16,468 bases of DNA from a virus (lineage: Duplodnaviria; Heunggongvirae; Uroviricota; Caudoviricetes), in IMG/VR virus record IMGVR_UViG_2690316184_000007; one strand, written 5' to 3'. Of the stretch, positions 4,713 through 15,022 are shown one piece after another. A program made the position numbers and the translations under genes. The notes beneath the pieces were generated by a model that worked only from the letters and a program-made list of their open reading frames with translations, made no database searches and was not told the DNA's origin. Every line of letters begins with the position of its first letter. Position 1 is the stretch's first letter.

Positions 4713-5194
4713 GACAGCAGCCCTCCCACCGTTTTACTGATATCGCTTAAGGCAGACGTTGCCGTATCCTGCAAATTATTCAGCTGCGCACTGAGATCAC
4801 CGAACATATCGGACAGGGATTCATCCACCCGTTTGAGCGACAGGGTAAACTCAATCCGGCGCGGCATACCATCGCGGAAAAACTCCGTTTTAGTCTGATT
4901 CAGTCCCTCAATCACATACATGCCGTAAATCGTGCCGCTGCCTTCAATCAGAGGCCATGCTTTCCCCTGTTCTGCCATCTGCTCCAGTGCCAGCAACGAC
5001 AGCCTGCCGCCTGTTATCTCCGGCATAAGAACACCGGAAAGCGTCAGCATGTCGTTGTCCGGTCCCAGAAACTGCGTGGACGGACGACGATTTACCCGGC
5101 TGTTAGCCGCATGTCGCCAGCTGCGCTGATACTGCAGTTCCTGATACGGCACGGTGCGCAGCATAAACACGTACAATCCCAGCACCATCATCAT
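4709..5194 (-). CDS. U: P2 gpU-like tail protein, 161 aa
   Basis: 161-aa ORF between the T remnant and D with ATGA overlaps at both ends; size and position match P2 gpU. Confidence 0.8.
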   Translation of the reverse strand: MMMVLGLYVFMLRTVPYQELQYQRSWRHAANSRVNRRPSTQFLGPDNDMLTLSGVLMPEITGGRLSLLALEQMAEQGKAWPLIEGSGTIYGMYVIEGLNQTKTEFFRDGMPRRIEFTLSLKRVDESLSDMFGDLSAQLNNLQDTATSALSDISKTVGGLLS

Positions 5195-5646
5195 GCGTCG
5201 TATCCCCCCTGATCGCTGTAGTTACTCCTGGCTTTTGCCTTCAGCCTGCGTTCACGTTCATCAAGCTGGCGGGCCACCTCCCGCGCAATATCCTGCGCAC
5301 TTTGTCCTGGCTGCGTCTGAATAATGATCTGCGTCGGTGCCTCAATCCGTTGAGCGGGCGGCACAGTGGCTGCACGACTCACCATTGCTTCACCGCCTTT
5401 CGTGGGAAGTGCCAAAGGATGCAACGGTGGAAGCTCTGCTGGCGCGGCAGCAACACCCATCATTCCGGCAACAACGGCAGCCAGTGCAGCTGTATTTCTC
5501 CGGCTGGTCACATTTGCCGGGCCGTTAACAATTTCCGGCCCGTTTTCACCGACGATGCCAAACTGCCCGCGCGGGATATAGCCGCCGCTGTCATACATCC
5601 CCGCAAAGCCATATCCCCATGCCCGGTTATCTTTCTGCCATCCCAT
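5191..5646 (-). pseudogene. T: 3' remnant of the tail tape-measure gene T (C-terminal ~150 codons only)
   Basis: Reading frame overlaps the U start by ATGA as T does in P2, but an in-frame stop lies at 5656-5658 and the upstream DNA encodes a portal fragment on the opposite strand. Gly/Ala-rich C-terminal sequence is typical of tape-measure ends. Confidence 0.65.
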
Positions 5647-6122
5647 CCGCTTTGCTCAACGAGTCCGCCACGCTGTTCCGCCGCAAGTATTACATCAACG
5701 GCAGCCATGCAGGCTTCATCATGTATATGACCGATGCCGCGCAGAATCAGGAGGATGTGAACAATCTCCGCAATGCGATGAAAAGCGCCAAAGGCCCTGG
5801 CAACTTCCGCAACCTGTTTATGTACTCGCCTAACGGCAAAAAGGACGGGATTCAGATCATCCCGTTGTCAGAAGTCGCGGCGAAGGATGAGTTTCTGAAT
5901 ATCAAAAATGTCAGCCGCGATGACATGATGGCAGCGCATCGTGTGCCGCCGCAAATGATGGGGATTATGCCGAATAATGTTGGGGGGTTTGGGGATGTGG
6001 AGAAGGCAAGTAATGTATTTGTTCGTAACGAACTTATCCCCTTACAAAAACGTATCGAACAATTAAATCAATGGATAGGAAACACAATTATTAATTTTTT
6101 ACCATATTCTCTCCAAAGTTAA
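5619..6122 (+). pseudogene. Q: 3' fragment of the portal gene Q (C-terminal ~150 codons)
   Basis: Translation ...RVPPQMMGIMPNNVGGFGDVEKASNVFVRNELIPLQKRIEQLN... is recognised as the C-terminal region of P2-type portal proteins. The ORF is about half the full portal length and has no plausible upstream continuation. Confidence 0.65.
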
Positions 6123-6162: not shown

Positions 6163-6780
6163 TTACCAGTTAAAAATTGATGAGCTGCGAATTGCAGGAA
6201 CATCCGATGGATTTCGTTTAGCAGCTGGTTCCATCAACTTACGCTTATTAAATGCCTGATCAATATAATACTCAGGATTTTTAATAAAGACAGAGTATTT
6301 TACCAATGCACAATATACGTCAGAGTCATTATAATGGGGAACTGTTTTTTCATAAACATGATTCTTTCTAACCAGATAAGGCAAATAATAATCATATCCC
6401 AAACCTGGCGTTCTTAGACTTATAGAACATCCGCATGATGGATCTGCACATACTGCAGGAGTAAACACACTGTCGTAAATTTCATCTCTGATAACACCAA
6501 TTAGACCATTATAGTTTTCTCCCCAGAGTGATGCTTGAATTTCAGTGTTTACAAATGGACGATTTTTGGTTTCCGTTCCAATAAGAACGACAGTAACCGT
6601 TGAGTCTTTTAAAAAATCCTCACGAATAGTCCTCATTATTGTTTCATCAGTGTTAGTTGTACTAATGTCACCATCACTTACCGACTTATCAATAAACGAT
6701 TCTCCTCCGAATAAATCAATAATCTCATCTTTGAGATCTTGTTCGTTAGCATGATGATAACTAAGAAACGTCTTATGCAT
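6163..6780 (-). CDS. TIR-like domain protein, ThsB-like (DUF1863 / PF08937-type), 205 aa
   Basis: N-terminus MHKTFLSYHH... and the core STVTVVLIGTETKNRPFVNTEIQAS resemble the B. cereus ThsB pattern as I recall it (VFFSFHY ... VTCVLIGSQTFNRRWVRYEI), including a Glu at the expected catalytic position (E80). Start ATG overlaps the upstream gene's stop (TAATG). Strongly AT-rich relative to flanking prophage DNA. Confidence 0.7.
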   Translation of the reverse strand: MHKTFLSYHHANEQDLKDEIIDLFGGESFIDKSVSDGDISTTNTDETIMRTIREDFLKDSTVTVVLIGTETKNRPFVNTEIQASLWGENYNGLIGVIRDEIYDSVFTPAVCADPSCGCSISLRTPGLGYDYYLPYLVRKNHVYEKTVPHYNDSDVYCALVKYSVFIKNPEYYIDQAFNKRKLMEPAAKRNPSDVPAIRSSSIFNW

Positions 6781-7511
6781 TATTCACTCCATTTATCAAC
6801 ATTTATATCAAACTCTTTGACTACCTTATCATTGAAGAAATCGTTTACTTCTTTAAAACCTTCCAATACTTGACTAAAATGATAATAATGCTTTTGTATA
6901 ATACTTATAGGGGTTAAATGATACGGCAATGATATAAATTCGCCGTTAGGGTCTCTATCCTTTGTGGTCACTTTATCATGATCTGAAACATATTTATGCC
7001 ATCTCCGATAATTATTTTGATGTTTTGTTAAAAAAGAGTTTAAGGTTTTCAAAATTTCATTTGAAAGTAAATACAGTTTTTTATCTCTTTTTTTCTTCAC
7101 ATCTAGTAATTTCATTTCATCTCTAATGAATTTATAGCACTCATAATATGAGTTTAAAACTTCTTCAATTGAGTCATAATTCGGATCAAATTTAAATAAT
7201 GTTCGCTTCGTATCCAGATAATTTTTTACGCTCTTTTTAAAAAGAAGATCAGACTTATTTAGTAAAATATTAATACCACCAAAACTAAGTTGCTCCAATC
7301 TCAATGAATATCTTTGATGAAATGCACCGACCAGCAAGATATAAGCAACTAAAAATAGTATTAATACTGATAAAAAAGCACGAATTATGCTTACATTTGA
7401 CATGAAATTAACTATAAACCACCATTTTTCAAACGGTGAAAACGGAATGCTCCCCATGATAATAAGTAGAAGAACAAAGATACAACTCCATAAAACCCAC
7501 AATCTGTACAT
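6780..7511 (-). CDS. Membrane protein with two N-terminal transmembrane helices and a ~150-aa Lys/Tyr/Asn-rich C-terminal domain of unknown function; first gene of the TIR operon
   Basis: ORF-track frame extends to a TTG at 7556; I prefer the ATG at 7509-7511 (MYRLWVLWSCIFVLLLIIMGSI...), preceded by AAAAAGGA. Hydrophobic helices at about residues 4-22 and 50-75 of the ATG-start protein. The C-terminal domain has no Gly-rich Macro motif and no SIR2-like motif I can see. Confidence 0.6.
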   Translation of the reverse strand: MYRLWVLWSCIFVLLLIIMGSIPFSPFEKWWFIVNFMSNVSIIRAFLSVLILFLVAYILLVGAFHQRYSLRLEQLSFGGINILLNKSDLLFKKSVKNYLDTKRTLFKFDPNYDSIEEVLNSYYECYKFIRDEMKLLDVKKKRDKKLYLLSNEILKTLNSFLTKHQNNYRRWHKYVSDHDKVTTKDRDPNGEFISLPYHLTPISIIQKHYYHFSQVLEGFKEVNDFFNDKVVKEFDINVDKWSE

Positions 7512-7663
7512 AAGAAAGATCCTTTTTCTTTTTATAATACTGCAACTACACCTCAAGTCAAAACCCTCTTCTGATATTACCCTCTACTACAGTAACCCAT
7601 CACATGACCTCCGACTTATCAGAAGACTAGCCAAACTTTCTCAATCAAATCAGGTTGCGCGCG

Positions 7664-7682
7664 CTCGTATCCCCGCCACGCC
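7664..7682 (-). other. cos-like site (P2/186-type cohesive-end sequence)
   Basis: Minus strand reads GGCGTGGCGGGGATACGAG. The first 13 nt match the 19-nt cohesive end of phage 186 as I recall it (GGCGTGGCGGGGAAAGCAT; P2 GGCGAGGCGGGGAAAGCAC). Recalled from memory, not checked. Confidence 0.4.
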
Positions 7683-7731
7683 TGCCCGCTTTATGTAGTG
7701 GTTTTCATGCACCTGCATGATCTACGCAAAA

Positions 7732-7751
7732 GCCCGCCAGTTCTGGCGGGC
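7732..7751 (-). terminator. Rho-independent terminator ending the minus-strand small-ORF/DinI-like transcript
   Basis: GC-rich hairpin GCCCGCCAG / CTGGCGGGC with TTTTG immediately following on the minus strand, ~135 bp downstream of the DinI-like stop. Confidence 0.5.
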
Positions 7752-7886
7752 CTTAGCAAAAACGATCCTCAAACGATCATGCGATCTCATGCGGCATAGA
7801 CATGCACTACAGAGCTAACGCCTCGCAAGGGCTCGTTGTTCAACCTTGCTGACGCCAGAAACAAGTTCAGACGCCAGCAACGTTTC

Positions 7887-8120
7887 TTAATGCAGCCAGC
7901 TGTCGTCTTCCCACACCTTCTGCATAATTTTCATCACTCGTTTTCTTTCTTCGTCCAGTTGCAGTCCGGTCAGTTCCACACCGTTAGAGCTACCTTTGCG
8001 GATACGAATTACCGTTTTGGGATACAGGGGGCGCAGATTGCGGTAAAGCTCGGATTCAAGGGCGTCCAGGGTAGACTGGCTAATCTTCTGCTCTTTATCG
8101 ATCATTATTTCAATGCGCAT
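7887..8120 (-). CDS. DinI-family protein, 77 aa
   Basis: MRIEIMIDKEQKISQSTLDALESELYRNLRPLYPKTVIRIRKGSSNGVELTGLQ...VWEDDSWLH parallels E. coli DinI (MRIEVTIAKT...ALAGEL...) in length and pattern. Start taken at the internal ATG 8118-8120, preceded by GGTGA. Confidence 0.7.
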   Translation of the reverse strand: MRIEIMIDKEQKISQSTLDALESELYRNLRPLYPKTVIRIRKGSSNGVELTGLQLDEERKRVMKIMQKVWEDDSWLH

Positions 8121-8130
8121 AAAAGTCACC

Positions 8131-8319
8131 TCAATTGATGACATCCATTGAGCGGTTGTATTCGTGGGTTCTGATTTTTGCCATGAGTTCATCTGTCAGT
8201 TCAGAAACCCACTGCAGGGCCAGCCCCTTCTCTTCATCACTACACTCACTAGCCGCTACAAGCTTAAGAAAAAAATCAATGCGCTGGAGCTTCAAAGACT
8301 CCAAAAAATAGTCCTGCAT
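8131..8319 (-). CDS. Small acidic hypothetical protein (62 aa), first gene of the LexA-controlled operon; possible Tum-like antirepressor module
   Basis: Internal ATG at 8317-8319 preceded by a strong TAGGAGGAAAG Shine-Dalgarno; stop 10 nt upstream of the DinI-like start. No motif recognised. Confidence 0.5.
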   Translation of the reverse strand: MQDYFLESLKLQRIDFFLKLVAASECSDEEKGLALQWVSELTDELMAKIRTHEYNRSMDVIN

Positions 8320-8360
8320 CTTTCCTCCTATGACACCACAAGAAATACTGTACGTATAAC

Positions 8361-8380
8361 CACTGTTTATATTTACAGCA
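8361..8380 (-). promoter_or_regulatory. LexA operator (SOS box) upstream of the small-ORF/DinI-like operon
   Basis: Perfect CTGT-N8-ACAG (CTGTttatatttACAG at 8363-8378) in the AT-rich region ~45 bp upstream of the 8319 start, matching the LexA consensus TACTGTATATATATACAGTA in both half-sites. -35/-10 hexamers could not be placed confidently. Confidence 0.65.
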
Positions 8381-8472
8381 TATAATAATCTTACTGATGT
8401 AAAACGTTTTTTTACGTTCATCAGCCTGATATGCCTGGTATTATTAAGAGCACGAATTGTTAACCCGCGTAA

Positions 8473-10845
8473 TTAATACAGGTTCCGCCATTTATCATCT
8501 TCCTTCAGACGCTGGTTCCGATAGAAGATACGCAGGCCTGCTCCTGATGGAATACTGCCACCGCGAAGGAGCAAATCGACTTCTTTCTCGCTGCCATCAA
8601 ATCCTCTGGACTTCAGTTCATAGACGAGCTGCTGATGCTGATGATCTGTAATTCGCTGTTTGTAGTCTTTACACCTTTTCGGTTTAACCAGGCGCAACCT
8701 TACTGCCAGCTCCCGGCGATCTTTTTTGCTCATACTGTGCAGGTAATCGTGCAACTCCTTGTCATCCATGCGGGTAATGTCCGTTCTGGTGTCCCCATCA
8801 GCTGATTTATCTTTCTCCTGTTGGTTCAAATTTTCAGCAAGGGGACAGTTATTGCCACGAGTCCAAGGGGCGCAAGCGCCCTGGTCGGCTGCCGCCTCCT
8901 GAACATCAACGGCCTTACGAACCATTTTCCACTTCACGGCATGAGTGCAGATCTTGCCCTCTGCAATAGGTGACCAGATGCCATAAATACGAATGCCGTG
9001 ATCGCCATAGGCGGTCGGCTCTTCGTTGATTTCATAAGCGGTTCTGATGAGGTGATATTTGCGGGGAACCAGTACGCCGCCCTGCTTCATGATGTAGGTG
9101 GCAAAACAACCAGCATCAGCAGCAGCCAGGATGGCATCAAGGCGCGGGTTATCCAGTACCCGCGCACCTGCTTTTTTGTCCCCCTGTTGCCTTGCCGCCT
9201 GACCAGCCAGCAATCGCAGTTCACGGTAAGCCTGACGCCCCGGAATGCCAAAGAAGCGGAATTGCTGAACACGATGCAGAGACGCCCAGGCATTAACGTA
9301 TTCAGCATTATCACGCAGGGATTTCCCCGTTTCCTTGCTGATCTCGCCAGCCAGACCACGCCCGTCAATGTTCTTACTGATGTATTTCGCGATGTAGCTT
9401 GTTGGCGTACCTTTGCGCGGGTTAATCAACTCAGACTTAAAGCGCGGCCCAGTGTTATTGCCCAGTTCCTCGCGGTCTTCACGGATGGCAAACTTACGCA
9501 GTAATGCAGTGATGGCGCGGCGGTCTTTTTTGCGCATAAAACACAACAGGTGCCAGTGAACTGTACCGTCATGATGCGGCTCAGCCACCCGCACGCCATA
9601 CCACCGCAATCCGGCTTTGTGCATCGCCTTACGAAATGCAGCAAACATGCCGACCAGATAATCACTGCTTTGTCTTACCGTCGCATTTGTCCAAGTTGGG
9701 TTGGGCCTGCCATTATTTAGCGTGGAATGGAAACGTGACGGACAGGTGATGGTGTAGAAAACGGCGCAGTCACCGCGCATTTCCGCGATAAGCTCCAGGC
9801 CTTTAACACAGGCCATCATCTCATTGCGGCGATGCGCAGGGTTGCTGCTGCTGGCGTTTACCACATCCTCCATGTCCAGCGTGTCGCCGTCTTCGTTCAC
9901 CAGTTCATGAGAACGAAAAAACTCCAGCGACTTACGGCGCTGCTCACGTTTATGCATCACGGCTTCATAGCTGACATAGGGAGATGCTTTTTTGCTGACC
10001 AGGCAGACAGCACGCAACTGCTCTTCCCGCCATTCGCAACGCATCTTCCATAATTTCCGGTACCACCAGTCAGCGCACAACATACGCGCCAGCGAACCCG
10101 GAATGAGTTCATAGGGCACGGGTTTACGGCGGTTTCTTTTCCGGCGGAGTTGCTCAAACGCAGGCGGGATGACATCCAGATGCAGGGTTTCCGCTGCCAC
10201 CTTTTCCCATGTCTTGCGGATTTCTTCTGGCTTAACGTCATCGGTGACATACAAATCGCCACAAGCTGCATCAAGGCACATGCTCATATGCGCAGCTACC
10301 AGGGTGGACAGGCGTTTCACCTGATCCTGACTCATTTCAGGCAGGATCAGCAGGCCGTCCAGCCCTTCATGGCTTGCCATAAAGCGAAAAGAAGTGGATA
10401 GCTGACAGTCGCGTACATGCTCCAGCCGTTCCAGACATGGCTTAATCGTCTCACGCAAATAGCGGGAATAAGCCTTTGGCCTGCCCAGGCTGCTGAAGTA
10501 TTCAATACGTTGCATCAGCGGCTTGCTGATATGGGAAGGCTGGGCATTGACGTCCGCCAGAATGACCATATCTGGATTAAAACGCTGCTGCTCATGCGCC
10601 AGCTTTGCCCGACTAATGAGCTTATCCTGCTCCATTTCGCGCTGGACAGGATCACGGGATTCATTAAAGAAATAACGCTCCCAGACCTGATCACTCAGTG
10701 CCTCGCGGCGCAGCTGTTCCTGCTCGTTATCGGCAGCGTACAGAGCGATCAGGTTTGAAAGCGCAGAAACTGAAGATTGCTCTTCTGTCTCTACGTAAGG
10801 ATTGATTGCTTTTTTCTCAGCATTCCAGGAATAGCTGTAGTTCAT
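8473..10845 (-). CDS. A: P2 gpA-type rolling-circle replication initiator (HUH endonuclease), ~790 aa
   Basis: Contains the HUH motif ([11 protein letters not shown]) and the two-tyrosine active-site motif ([13 protein letters not shown]). Start preferred at the ATG 10843-10845 (MNYSYSWN...), which overlaps the upstream stop as TAATG; the ORF track extends to 10896. Confidence 0.85.
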
Positions 10846-11675
10846 TACGCAATCTCCAGTTCGAGCTGTGAAGGCTGCAAACCATTCGACAGCCAATCAG
10901 AAACTGAAGGTGGGCGAACAGCTTCAATTGCACCTTTTAAAATTGCGCAACGGTTTTTCAGAATGACAGCTTTCAGCTCCTTTTCCGTCAGATTGCGCGA
11001 ATACTCAGCCTCCTGAATAGCCCGCGTCAGCTCAGGATATTTGCTATTAAATTTGGGGACATTGCAGGCAAGATTTGTACTGTCGGCAGTCGCCAGTGGG
11101 TAATTTCCCAACACACGACCGTCAAGCATGCGCAAACCATGAACAGCTGTTTTGAAATTGTGTCGGCAATAAATTGCTTCAAAAGCGTCCTGCATACGAC
11201 GATGCCAGTGCGCAGTTCTGATAGCCGCATATTCACCAGACGATCCAAAGCAGACACGAGGCCATTCACGACATAGCTCGATAAGCCGATCGATTGACTC
11301 GTGCAGATGCCAGACGGGAGTTGCCTTCCCGTAGAACATTTTCGGAACTTCGTTTATCAGGGCATCATTGTCACGTTCACCTCCGTCCACAACATCAGGA
11401 ATGACAAAAAAAGCGACCTTAGGATGGTGGTAATAGTTCAGGAGCCATTTATAAAAATCACTCCAGTTAATTTTTAGCCCACGCACCCATGCAGAAAATG
11501 CGCCGTTATCAATGCCGACGACCTGAGCGTGCTGAATGGACGCCGCAATCTGATCTGGTCGTACATAGGAGACGAAAGCGCCAGCTCCGCTCACCGCAAT
11601 ACGATGAACGTCGCCAGCACTTCCCCAGACAGGCGTCCCATGGAAATGATGAATTCCGTGGTGCATTTCTTTCAC
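10845..11675 (-). CDS. Conserved prophage early-operon protein of unknown function, 273-276 aa, His-rich N-terminus
   Basis: Long ORF between dam and A, coupled to both (GTG overlapping the dam stop, or ATG at 11664-11666; TAATG with A). No motif I can assign with confidence. Confidence 0.55.
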
Positions 11676-14446: not shown

Positions 14447-15022
14447 GTGACCATGAATTTGGAGAAAGGCGGACGAGGCGCTATAGAGCGCATGGTAGAA
14501 GCTTATGGATTCAAAACTCGACAGGCGTTGTGCGATCATTTAGGAATCTCTAAAAGTACACTCGCCACACGCTACATGCGTGACTCATTCCCAGCAGAAT
14601 GGGTAATCCAGTGCGCCCTTGAAACGGGCACCTCGCTTAATTGGCTCACAACCGGACATGGTTCAAAGCAAACTTCAGGTAATACAAATACTATGGAAGT
14701 TGCTAAATATGTATTATCTGATGGTGCCTTGCGTGAAGACGGTTTTTATATTTTTGATAAGGGATTTCTACCCTCTACGTTTAAAAAACCTTTTGTCATC
14801 ACAGATAACAATTCTGAATTTATTTGTGATAAAGAATTTGATGATATACGTGACGGTAAATGGGTAATAAGTATTGATGGCGAAATAACAATCCGCGACA
14901 TTACTCGTTTACCCGGTGGAAGAATCTTCGTTGAAGGTGGAAACAGAGCCTTCGAGTGCAAGATAGAAGATGTTGAAATAATTGGGAAAATTATAAGTTT
15001 AACAATTAAGTACGTTAGGTAA
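14447..15022 (+). CDS. cI: CI-type immunity repressor (186-like), 191 aa
   Basis: N-terminal DNA-binding region (...FKTRQALCDHLGISKSTLATRYMRD...), length close to 186 CI, divergent from apl/cII and followed by int. Confidence 0.8.
   Translation: MTMNLEKGGRGAIERMVEAYGFKTRQALCDHLGISKSTLATRYMRDSFPAEWVIQCALETGTSLNWLTTGHGSKQTSGNTNTMEVAKYVLSDGALREDGFYIFDKGFLPSTFKKPFVITDNNSEFICDKEFDDIRDGKWVISIDGEITIRDITRLPGGRIFVEGGNRAFECKIEDVEIIGKIISLTIKYVR

What the first reader, a model, noticed from the sequence alone, without database searches (positions are those of the whole stretch)
7887..8380. SOS-controlled operon with a perfect LexA box driving a small ORF plus a DinI-family gene (Tum-like antirepressor module)
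CTGT-N8-ACAG at 8363-8378 lies just upstream of a strong-Shine-Dalgarno small ORF followed 10 nt later by a DinI-like gene. Phage 186 induces through a LexA-repressed antirepressor (Tum), and DinI proteins modulate RecA. Even though this prophage cannot produce virions, DNA damage would still trigger expression here, possibly derepressing the early operon (including dam and A) or modulating the host SOS response.
Basis: partly seen in the sequence, partly recalled or inferred. Interest (0 to 1): 0.55.

Follow-up and report, generated by a model that had tools for sequence, protein, structure and literature searches.

The report
Split Tum antirepressor SOS operon
This is the already described DNA-damage switch of Fels-2/186-type phages (a LexA-repressed small antirepressor gene followed by a DinI-like gene), sitting intact in a crippled E. 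coli prophage; it is ordinary, although databases still label the key gene "hypothetical".

Summary
A CTGT-N8-ACAG LexA box (8378..8363, minus strand) precedes a 62-codon ORF with a strong Shine-Dalgarno (8319..8131). Ten nt later comes a 77-codon DinI-family gene (8120..7887).

The small protein is 100% identical to Fels-2 STM2728. It is 97% identical to E. coli HS ECHS_RS04495, the "tum" gene whose deletion abolishes mitomycin C induction of prophage DuoHS (PMC12055606). A profile of the family aligns without gaps to residues 3-44 of the phage 186 Tum antirepressor (hhalign 94.9%). The DinI-like protein matches the C-terminal half of Tum (41% identity). The split tumA/tumB form is described for Fels-2 and PSP3 (PMC3121763).

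What I added:
- The operator is a colicin-type double LexA box, 41/49 identical to the ColE1 cea operator.
- The operon ends at a terminator just before a retained cos site.
- One almost invariant TumA allele accompanies CI repressors that are only 37-100% identical.
- The host element is a deletion derivative of a DuoHS-like phage and lacks head, tail and lysis genes.

What SOS induction does in this remnant is inferred, not shown. Low interest; already known.

The parts
8398..8403 (-). -35 element TTTACA of the tum promoter (counterpart of 186 p95)
   Evidence: Read from the sequence. Invariant in about 120 related contigs even though the search pattern did not constrain it. Position corresponds to the annotated p95 -35 TTCACA of 186. 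Not picked up by the generic scan.
8375..8382 (-). Candidate -10 region: TGCTGT (8380..8375, 17-nt spacer, counterpart of the 186 p95 -10 TACTGT) or TATGCT (8382..8377, 15-nt spacer). Includes the A->G polymorphism at 8379.
   Evidence: By alignment to the annotated 186 p95. Relatives carry A at 8379 in 119 copies against G in 5 (the window's own genome plus 4 of 120 viral contigs, on different backgrounds). The transcription start is not mapped here.
8361..8380 (-). LexA box 1, TGCTGTAAATATAAACAGTG (core CTG-N10-CAG 8378..8363)
   Evidence: 16/20 to the consensus. Conserved in relatives.
8346..8365 (-). LexA box 2, CAGTGGTTATACGTACAGTA (GTG-N10-CAG 8363..8348), sharing G8363 with box 1; colicin-type overlapping operator
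   Evidence: 41/49 identity to the ColE1 cea operator TGCTGTATATAAAACCAGTGGTTATATGTACAGTA. The arms are conserved while 3-4 spacer bases vary among 76 distinct relatives. [quoted passage not shown]
8131..8319 (-). tumA: 62-aa antirepressor (N-terminal Tum domain), SD AGGAGG at 8329..8324
   Evidence: 100% identical to Fels-2 STM2728 and 97% to E. coli HS ECHS_RS04495 = 'tum'. hhalign to 186 Tum residues 3-44, probability 94.9%. Family of 66 representatives, W37 invariant. AF2 model is a two-helix hairpin, pLDDT 88.7.
8125..8142 (-). 6-bp hairpin GTCATC..GGTGAC spanning the tumA stop codon and the tumB Shine-Dalgarno (possible translational coupling)
   Evidence: The intergenic sequence TGAGGTGACTTTTATG is identical in 103 of the 124 copies of the module examined. 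The function is inferred.
7887..8120 (-). tumB: 77-aa DinI-family protein (C-terminal Tum domain)
   Evidence: Pfam PF06183 E 4.7e-23. 41% identical to 186 Tum residues 71-145. Matches the E. coli DinI structure 1ghh, E 7e-7. Same length as the annotated internal-start 'truncated Tum' of 186 and as PSP3 TumB.
7727..7754 (-). Intrinsic terminator (11-bp G+C-rich stem, then CUUUUG) ending the tumA-tumB operon
   Evidence: Fold -25.1 kcal/mol, z -4.2. No ORF lies between tumB and this hairpin.
7664..7682 (-). cos-like cohesive-end site GGCGTGGCGGGGATACGAG, marking the right end of the phage genome just after the operon
   Evidence: Matches the 186 cos (GGCGTGGCGGGGAAAGCAT) and the flank ...CATAAAGYGGGCA before it.
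14453..15022 (+). cI: 186-type immunity repressor, the presumed target of TumA
   Evidence: PF07022 + PF16452. 95% identical to DuoHS CI.

Best explanation
This is the SOS induction operon of a Fels-2/DuoHS-type (Peduoviridae, 186-like) prophage, in its split tumA-tumB form.

In undamaged cells, LexA dimers occupy two overlapping boxes. These cover the -10 region and the start region of a promoter lying between replication gene A and cos, and they keep it shut.

DNA damage activates RecA and LexA cleaves itself. The promoter then fires and two small proteins are made from one transcript, which stops at the terminator at 7754..7727.
- TumA (62 aa, a two-helix hairpin) binds the 186-type CI repressor and stops it binding its operators. 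This derepresses the early lytic operon (apl, cII, fil, dam, A).
- TumB (77 aa, DinI-like) binds RecA filaments and tunes the SOS signal.

Shown here: the anatomy, the homology, and the identity to genes tested by others.

Taken from the literature: LexA dependence and the requirement of the small gene for induction, in the 97%-identical DuoHS ortholog; antirepressor activity of 186 Tum and of the PSP3 upstream gene.

Inferred: that both boxes bind LexA here, that TumA binds this CI, and what follows in this remnant. The remnant lacks lysis and virion genes, so at most excision, replication and expression of early genes could follow.
For: - Anatomy.
- TumA is 100% identical to Fels-2 STM2728 and 97% to ECHS_RS04495.
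- ECHS_RS04495 is the gene deleted as 'tum' in DuoHS. Both the tum deletion and lexA(Ind-) abolish MMC-induced lysis (PMC12055606).
- DuoHS sits at the same rcdA/ybjL site and its CI is 95% identical.
- hhalign of the TumA family against 186 Tum: probability 94.9%, residues 3-44 to 3-44, no gaps.
- TumB against the Tum C-terminal half: 41% identity. DinI Pfam hit.
- The 186 record annotates p95, a LexA site and tum in the same position.
- PMC3121763 states that Fels-2 and PSP3 have tum split in two, with the upstream gene as the antirepressor.
- PMC7708051 describes the p95-tum module as sufficient for UV derepression of pR through inhibition of CI.
- Double operator 41/49 identical to ColE1 cea. 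Colicin double boxes bind two LexA dimers (PMC2994835).
- The CI is of the 186 type.
Against: - No experiment exists on this copy.
- BLASTP of TumA against 186 Tum finds nothing. The link needs a profile, and PSP3 TumA aligns only weakly (E 0.004, probability 8.6%).
- The window carries G instead of the usual A at 8379. This is position 2 of the 20-mer box. It is also either -11 or -9 of the -10 hexamer, so it could weaken the promoter or LexA binding. The same G does occur in four viral contigs of about 24-36 kb, on other sequence backgrounds.
- Box 2 has GTG in place of CTG and matches the consensus at only 14/20.
- The role of TumB is known only by analogy with DinI and from a record annotation for 186.
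Confidence: 0.85

Rival explanations
1. The module is present but functionally dead or decaying in this defective prophage. The A->G change at 8379 cripples the promoter, and the ORFs are intact only because the deletion is recent.
For: - G at 8379 is rare: 5 of 124 copies. With 17-nt spacing it replaces the A at -11 of the -10 hexamer that is homologous to the 186 p95 TACTGT.
- The element has lost about 20 kb of late genes, so selection for inducibility may be gone.
- Genomes carrying this exact remnant are essentially identical, which gives no evidence of purifying selection within the lineage.
Against: - Both ORFs, both Shine-Dalgarno sites, both LexA boxes, the -35 element and the terminator are intact.
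- The G variant also occurs in four viral contigs of about 24-36 kb on different sequence backgrounds, so it is tolerated in other phages.
- With a 15-nt spacer the change falls at the weakly conserved -9 position (TATACT to TATGCT).
Confidence: 0.12
2. The operon's main role here is to modulate the host SOS response through the DinI-like protein. On this view the small ORF is an accessory or leader peptide rather than an antirepressor.
For: - TumB is a clear DinI-family protein.
- Databases give no function for the small ORF: no Pfam or NCBIfam match, and PHROG 698 'unknown function'.
Against: - In-frame deletion of the 97%-identical small ORF alone abolishes DuoHS induction while the SOS reporter still fires (PMC12055606).
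- The small ORF is homologous to the N-terminal half of 186 Tum.
- It forms a conserved family with an invariant Trp and a confident two-helix model.
Confidence: 0.03
3. The LexA box is a chance palindrome in AT-rich intergenic DNA, and the operon is not SOS-controlled.
For: Within the window alone, 28 of 200 shuffles give at least one CTGT-N8-ACAG. The generic promoter scan finds no sigma-70 site here.
Against: - The box is conserved in more than 120 contigs.
- A second overlapping box is present.
- The operator is 41/49 identical to the LexA operator of ColE1.
- The position corresponds to the 186 p95 LexA site.
- lexA(Ind-) blocks induction of DuoHS, which has the same operator.
Confidence: 0.01

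Closest known systems
Fels-2 STM2728 / STM2726.1 and E. coli HS DuoHS tum (ECHS_RS04495) / ECHS_RS04500
   Same: Same operon. TumA is 100% identical (Fels-2) and 97% identical (DuoHS). The double operator, intergenic spacer and DinI-like gene are the same, and so is the position after gene A. DuoHS also shares the integration site and has a 95%-identical CI. The DuoHS gene is experimentally required for MMC induction (PMC12055606).
   Different: The window has G rather than A at 8379. It has no cargo gene between tumB and the terminator, whereas Fels-2 has STM2726 and DuoHS has ECHS_RS25360 after tumB. The host prophage has lost its virion and lysis genes. Fels-2 CI is only 38% identical to this CI.
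Phage 186 SOS operon (p95, LexA site, tum, orf97)
   Same: A LexA-repressed promoter between gene A and cos. The N-terminal Tum domain is homologous to TumA. The C-terminal DinI-like domain is homologous to TumB, and in 186 it is also annotated as made separately from an internal start, with the same 77 aa. The target is a 186-type CI.
   Different: In 186 the two halves are one 146-aa polypeptide; here they are two genes in different reading frames, separated by TGA plus 10 nt. 186 has a single LexA box and this operator has two overlapping ones. 186 has orf97 downstream, and there is no homologue here.
PSP3 tumA / tumB
   Same: Split arrangement with an upstream antirepressor gene and a downstream DinI homologue (PMC3121763).
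   Different: PSP3 TumA is very divergent from this TumA (hhalign E 0.004). In PSP3 the two genes are in the same frame, separated by TAG plus one codon. PSP3 has a single LexA box.
Colicin E1 (cea) double SOS operator
   Same: Two overlapping LexA boxes that share one base. 41/49 identical, including the non-consensus GTGGTTAT arm of box 2. Expected to give very tight repression with little basal expression (PMC2994835).
   Different: It controls a phage antirepressor rather than a bacteriocin and lysis operon. Upstream promoter sequences are unrelated. Whether the similarity reflects shared ancestry or convergence is undecided.
Gifsy/Fels-1 LexA-controlled antirepressors (GfoA, GftA, FsoA)
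   Same: The same logic: a LexA-repressed operon encoding a small trans-acting antirepressor together with a dinI homologue (PMC3121763).
   Different: The gene order is reversed (dinI first). The repressors are lambdoid and of another family. I did not compare these proteins with TumA, so I cannot say whether they are related in sequence.

Membership tests
186 Tum-type LexA-controlled antirepressor operon (split tumA/tumB form) | LexA operator overlapping the promoter of the operon | tested here: met
   Box 1 at 8380..8361 (core perfect, 16/20) and box 2 at 8365..8346 (14/20) overlap the -10 and start region downstream of TTTACA. The position matches the annotated 186 p95 LexA site.
186 Tum-type LexA-controlled antirepressor operon (split tumA/tumB form) | Product homologous to the N-terminal (antirepressor) half of Tum | tested here: met
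   hhalign of a 28-sequence family profile against 186 Tum: probability 94.9%, E 4.5e-8, residues 3-44 aligned to 3-44 without gaps. Pairwise BLASTP fails.
186 Tum-type LexA-controlled antirepressor operon (split tumA/tumB form) | DinI-like second half or second gene | tested here: met
   PF06183 at 81.7 bits. 41% identity to Tum residues 71-145.
186 Tum-type LexA-controlled antirepressor operon (split tumA/tumB form) | Location at the right end of a P2/186-like genome, between replication gene A and cos | tested here: met
   Gene A at 8473..10845, operon at 8403..7727, cos-like site at 7682..7664.
186 Tum-type LexA-controlled antirepressor operon (split tumA/tumB form) | Cognate 186-type CI repressor in the same element | tested here: met
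   PF07022 (E 2.7e-33) and PF16452 (E 2e-28) at 14453..15019, and no other family at E <= 0.001.
186 Tum-type LexA-controlled antirepressor operon (split tumA/tumB form) | Protein binds CI and blocks its operator binding; damage induction depends on LexA cleavage and on the gene | not testable with these tools
   Only indirect evidence: the tum deletion and lexA(Ind-) phenotypes of the 97%-identical DuoHS ortholog (PMC12055606), and statements on 186 and PSP3 (PMC3121763, PMC7708051).
DinI family (PF06183) | Match to the family model above the curated threshold | tested here: met
   81.7 bits against a cut-off of 24.2. Matches the DinI structure 1ghh, E 7e-7.
DinI family (PF06183) | Equivalence to chromosomal DinI (NCBIfam equivalog NF007893) | tested here: not met
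   44.1 bits against a cut-off of 111. It is a DinI-like paralogue, not DinI itself.
DinI family (PF06183) | Binds RecA filaments and modulates co-protease activity | not testable with these tools
Inferred from family membership and from the 186 record note 'modulates SOS induction'.
Colicin-type double (overlapping) SOS operator | Two 16-bp LexA-type boxes overlapping by one base | tested here: met
   CTG-N10-CAG at 8378..8363 and GTG-N10-CAG at 8363..8348. 41/49 identical to the ColE1 operator.
Colicin-type double (overlapping) SOS operator | Binding of two LexA dimers | not testable with these tools
   Needs a footprint or gel shift. Known for colicin operators (PMC2994835).

The most novel reading that the evidence does not exclude
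TumA may be a 'master key' that inactivates CI repressors of many immunity types by binding their conserved N-terminal DNA-binding domain.

If so, this dead prophage, which keeps a tightly LexA-locked tumA next to a cos site, could still act in trans during SOS. It could induce co-resident or incoming Fels-2-like phages whatever their immunity, or block their lysogeny.

The basis is that the same TumA allele is found with CI proteins 37-100% identical. Their N-terminal domains stay 69-100% identical while the C-terminal domains fall to 24%.
Probability: 0.3. Interest if true: 0.45.

Novelty: already known. Interest (0 to 1): 0.17.

Why it matters
The switch itself is textbook material for phage 186 and has been tested genetically in a near-identical E. 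coli HS prophage, so finding it here adds little.

Three practical points remain:
- **Annotation gap.** The antirepressor gene is present in 1,125 of 5,426 complete E. coli genomes. RefSeq still labels it "hypothetical", PHROGs lists it as "unknown function", and Pfam and NCBIfam have no model for it. That gap can be closed.
- **Remnants that still respond to damage.** A prophage without lysis or virion genes but with an intact SOS switch, integrase, excisionase, replication gene and cos may still respond to DNA damage. That matters for genome stability and for cross-talk with other prophages.
- **One TumA, many CI types.** An invariant TumA paired with many CI types suggests cross-induction among heteroimmune P2-like prophages. 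This is cheap to test.

Tried and rejected
- **BLASTP of TumA against 186 Tum:** no alignment. Resolved with a family profile.
- **Fused TumA-DinI proteins among relatives:** none seen. All 66 representatives are short or carry the match at their C-terminal end.
- **Recoding to fuse TumA and TumB:** considered and rejected as a conserved feature. tumB is in the +1 frame here, with no prfB-like slippery site. In PSP3 the two genes are in frame across a TAG. There is no consistent signal, and it cannot be tested here.
- **The 243-aa gene downstream as an orf97 or STM2726 homologue:** all three are 243 aa, but there is no similarity.
- **PADLOC, NCBIfam and Pfam on TumA:** nothing. **PDB by sequence profile:** nothing. 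**Rfam on 7400..8600:** only a chance miRNA match.
- **P2 cos sequence:** no match at <=3 mismatches. The 186-type cos was then found by eye and confirmed against the ends of 186.
- **Literature:** a search for 'TumA/TumB' returned only unrelated papers. Bunny et al. 2002, the primary source on Fels-2 tum, is not held, so it is cited only through PMC3121763.
- **Fold search of the two-helix TumA model:** not run, because such hairpins give non-specific matches.

Full report
**Where the window comes from.** The 16.5-kb window is 100% identical to the chromosome of E. coli APEC O78 and related poultry strains. It holds a P2/186-like prophage inserted between ybjL and rcdA. RefSeq annotates int, cI, an apl/cox-like gene, cII, fil, dam, a replication endonuclease (A), a "hypothetical protein", a "DinI family protein" and two cargo genes. 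Next come a portal pseudogene abutting a tape-measure pseudogene, followed by U, D and ogr. E. coli HS carries a complete 33-kb relative, DuoHS, at the same site, with all head, lysis and tail genes.

**The observation.** On the minus strand the elements are:
- -35 TTTACA at 8403..8398.
- TGCTGTAAATATAAACAGTG at 8380..8361, with the core CTGT-N8-ACAG at 8378..8363.
- AGGAGG at 8329..8324, then ATG at 8319 opening a 62-codon ORF that ends with TGA at 8131.
- Ten nt further, ATG at 8120 opening a 77-codon ORF that ends at 7887.

The second product matches Pfam DinI (E 4.7e-23). The box alone is not significant within the window: 0.15 are expected, and 28 of 200 shuffles give at least one. It matches the 20-mer consensus at 16/20. 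Its significance comes from the context described below.

**What the two genes are.**
- The 62-aa protein is 100% identical to Fels-2 STM2728 and 97% identical to E. coli HS ECHS_RS04495.
- The Fels-2 record notes that the adjacent DinI-like gene is similar to TumB of PSP3. PSP3 annotates tumA ("similar to 5' end 186 tum; UV induction of prophage") and tumB ("similar to dinI and 3' end of 186 tum").
- Phage 186 annotates the LexA-controlled promoter p95, a LexA site and a 146-aa Tum, with internal starts that include a 77-aa DinI-like form.
- The window's DinI-like protein aligns to Tum residues 71-145 at 41% identity.
- The small protein gives no BLASTP alignment to Tum. A search of 1.84 billion representatives found a compact family of 66 short proteins. 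An alignment of 28 of them (32-73% identical, W37 invariant) aligns to Tum residues 3-44, position for position and without gaps (hhalign probability 94.9%, E 4.5e-8).

So the window carries 186 tum split into tumA (antirepressor half) and tumB (DinI half). AlphaFold models TumA as a two-helix hairpin with the conserved Cys at the turn (pLDDT 88.7). No relative has a solved structure.

**What is already known.** Lemire et al. 2011 (PMC3121763) make three relevant statements. First, 186 Tum looks like a fusion of an antirepressor and DinI. [quoted passage not shown] Third, in PSP3 the upstream gene carries the antirepressor activity; this rests on a personal communication cited in Bunny et al. 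2002, a paper I could not open.

The Phollow paper (PMC12055606) deleted "tum (locus tag ECHS_RS04495)" in DuoHS. That locus tag is the 189-bp "hypothetical protein" directly upstream of the DinI-like gene. Both the tum deletion and lexA(Ind-) abolished mitomycin C-induced lysis and virion formation. The tum deletion strain still showed SOS reporter activity.

PMC7708051 uses the 186 p95-tum fragment as a self-contained UV-induction module that derepresses pR by inhibiting CI.

**Additions to the anatomy.**
1. *Double operator.* Box 1 (CTG-N10-CAG, 8378..8363) shares its last G with a second box (GTG-N10-CAG, 8363..8348). A search of plasmids with the 54-nt operator hit 842 records, including ColE1 itself. 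The ColE1 sequence upstream of the colicin E1 start codon reads TGCTGTATATAAAACCAGTGGTTATATGTACAGTATTT. It is 41/49 identical to the window, including the non-consensus left arm of box 2. [quoted passage not shown] Among 76 distinct relatives the arms of box 2 are conserved while three or four spacer bases vary freely. 186 and PSP3 have a single box. By inference, the double lock delays antirepressor synthesis until damage is severe.
2. *The -10 element is not mapped.* By homology with 186 p95 it is T(A/G)CTGT at 17-nt spacing. TATRCT at 15-nt spacing is an alternative. The window has G at 8379, where 119 of 124 copies have A. The G recurs in four viral contigs of about 24-36 kb with different neighbouring polymorphisms. 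Its effect is unknown.
3. *Possible translational coupling.* A 6-bp hairpin pairs the end of tumA with the tumB Shine-Dalgarno. This suggests coupling, by inference only.
4. *End of the operon.* A strong terminator lies at 7754..7727 (-25.1 kcal/mol, z -4.2). Forty-five nt beyond it lies a cos-like site, GGCGTGGCGGGGATACGAG at 7682..7664, which matches the 186 cohesive end and its left flank. The operon thus occupies the extreme right end of the phage genome, as in 186, but without an orf97-like gene.

**TumA and CI diversity.** Sixty-eight related loci hold both genes. In 66 of them TumA is at least 95% identical to the window's copy, and in the other two it is 92-93% identical. CI ranges from 37% to 100% identity, in roughly ten classes. 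The few TumA tail variants do not track the CI class. Fels-2 has a 100%-identical TumA with a 38%-identical CI.

Across these CI classes the N-terminal helix-turn-helix domain stays 69-100% identical, while the C-terminal oligomerisation domain falls to 24%. The simplest inference is that TumA recognises the conserved N-terminal domain and is not specific to one immunity type. That would allow cross-induction among heteroimmune relatives, as shown for the Gifsy antirepressors (PMC3121763). I found no statement of this for the Fels-2 group, and it has not been tested.

**Likely behaviour in this remnant (inference).** cI, apl, cII, fil, dam, A, int, ogr and cos are all intact. SOS induction should therefore inactivate CI and turn on the early operon. 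Excision (Int plus Apl) and A-dependent replication could follow, along with Fil-mediated filamentation, but not lysis or particle production. TumB would modulate RecA. None of this can be checked with the tools available.

**Verdict.** The system is already known: the same genes are described in Fels-2 and PSP3, and the ortholog has been tested genetically in DuoHS. Residual interest lies in four points:
- the missing annotation of TumA, whose module occurs in 21% of complete E. coli genomes;
- the colicin-like double operator;
- the possibility that TumA acts across immunity types;
- the question of what an SOS-inducible but lysis-defective prophage does.

Noticed in passing
window 6163-7511 (minus strand), promoter-like site 7561-7534: Two cargo genes lie between cos and the portal remnant. 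One is a 243-aa protein with a hydrophobic N-terminal stretch that looks membrane-spanning (by eye) and no family match. The other is a 205-aa ThsB-like TIR protein (Pfam PF08937 E 1e-14; PADLOC ThsB E 4e-12). There is no recognisable ThsA, so this may be a Thoeris-like defence pair with an undescribed partner, sitting in the variable cargo slot of P2-like phages.
   Followed up: partly
window 10845-11666 (minus strand): A 273-aa gene sits between dam and replication gene A. It is absent from the otherwise collinear DuoHS prophage. It matches PHROG 887 'queuine tRNA-ribosyltransferase' (E 7.5e-96, profile positions 10-311 of 509) but no Pfam, NCBIfam or PADLOC model. It could be a truncated or divergent Tgt/DpdA-like DNA-modification gene.
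   Followed up: partly
window 7664-7682 (minus strand): A cos-like cohesive-end site, GGCGTGGCGGGGATACGAG, with a 186-like left flank is retained in the defective prophage. In principle the roughly 13-kb remnant could be packaged by a helper P2-like phage.
   Followed up: partly
window about 5619-5622: Deletion junction. A tape-measure pseudogene (5191-5622, minus strand) abuts a portal pseudogene (5619-6122, plus strand). About 20 kb of head, lysis and tail genes present in DuoHS are missing.
   Followed up: partly
window 8379: An A->G polymorphism lies inside LexA box 1 and the candidate -10 hexamer. G appears in only 5 of 124 copies examined, but on several different sequence backgrounds.
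   Followed up: partly
window 7842-7884 (minus strand): A long hairpin (11-bp main stem, no U tract) starts a few nt after the tumB stop codon. The whole 176-nt tail up to the terminator folds unusually well (z -4.1). There is no Rfam match and the function is unknown. It may be a partial terminator, like t95a of 186.
   Followed up: partly
relatives of the 62-aa ORF (e.g. P0015; Klebsiella phage ST340-VIM1phi10.2): Some database entries name TumA homologues 'levan regulatory protein' or 'levan regulatory domain protein'. This looks like a propagated name unrelated to the antirepressor role.
   Followed up: no
loci L054 and L083 (IMG/VR contigs): In two related phages the CI ORF is about 312 aa and appears to contain two tandem copies of the N-terminal CI helix-turn-helix domain. 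This could be a duplicated-domain repressor or two fused genes.
   Followed up: no
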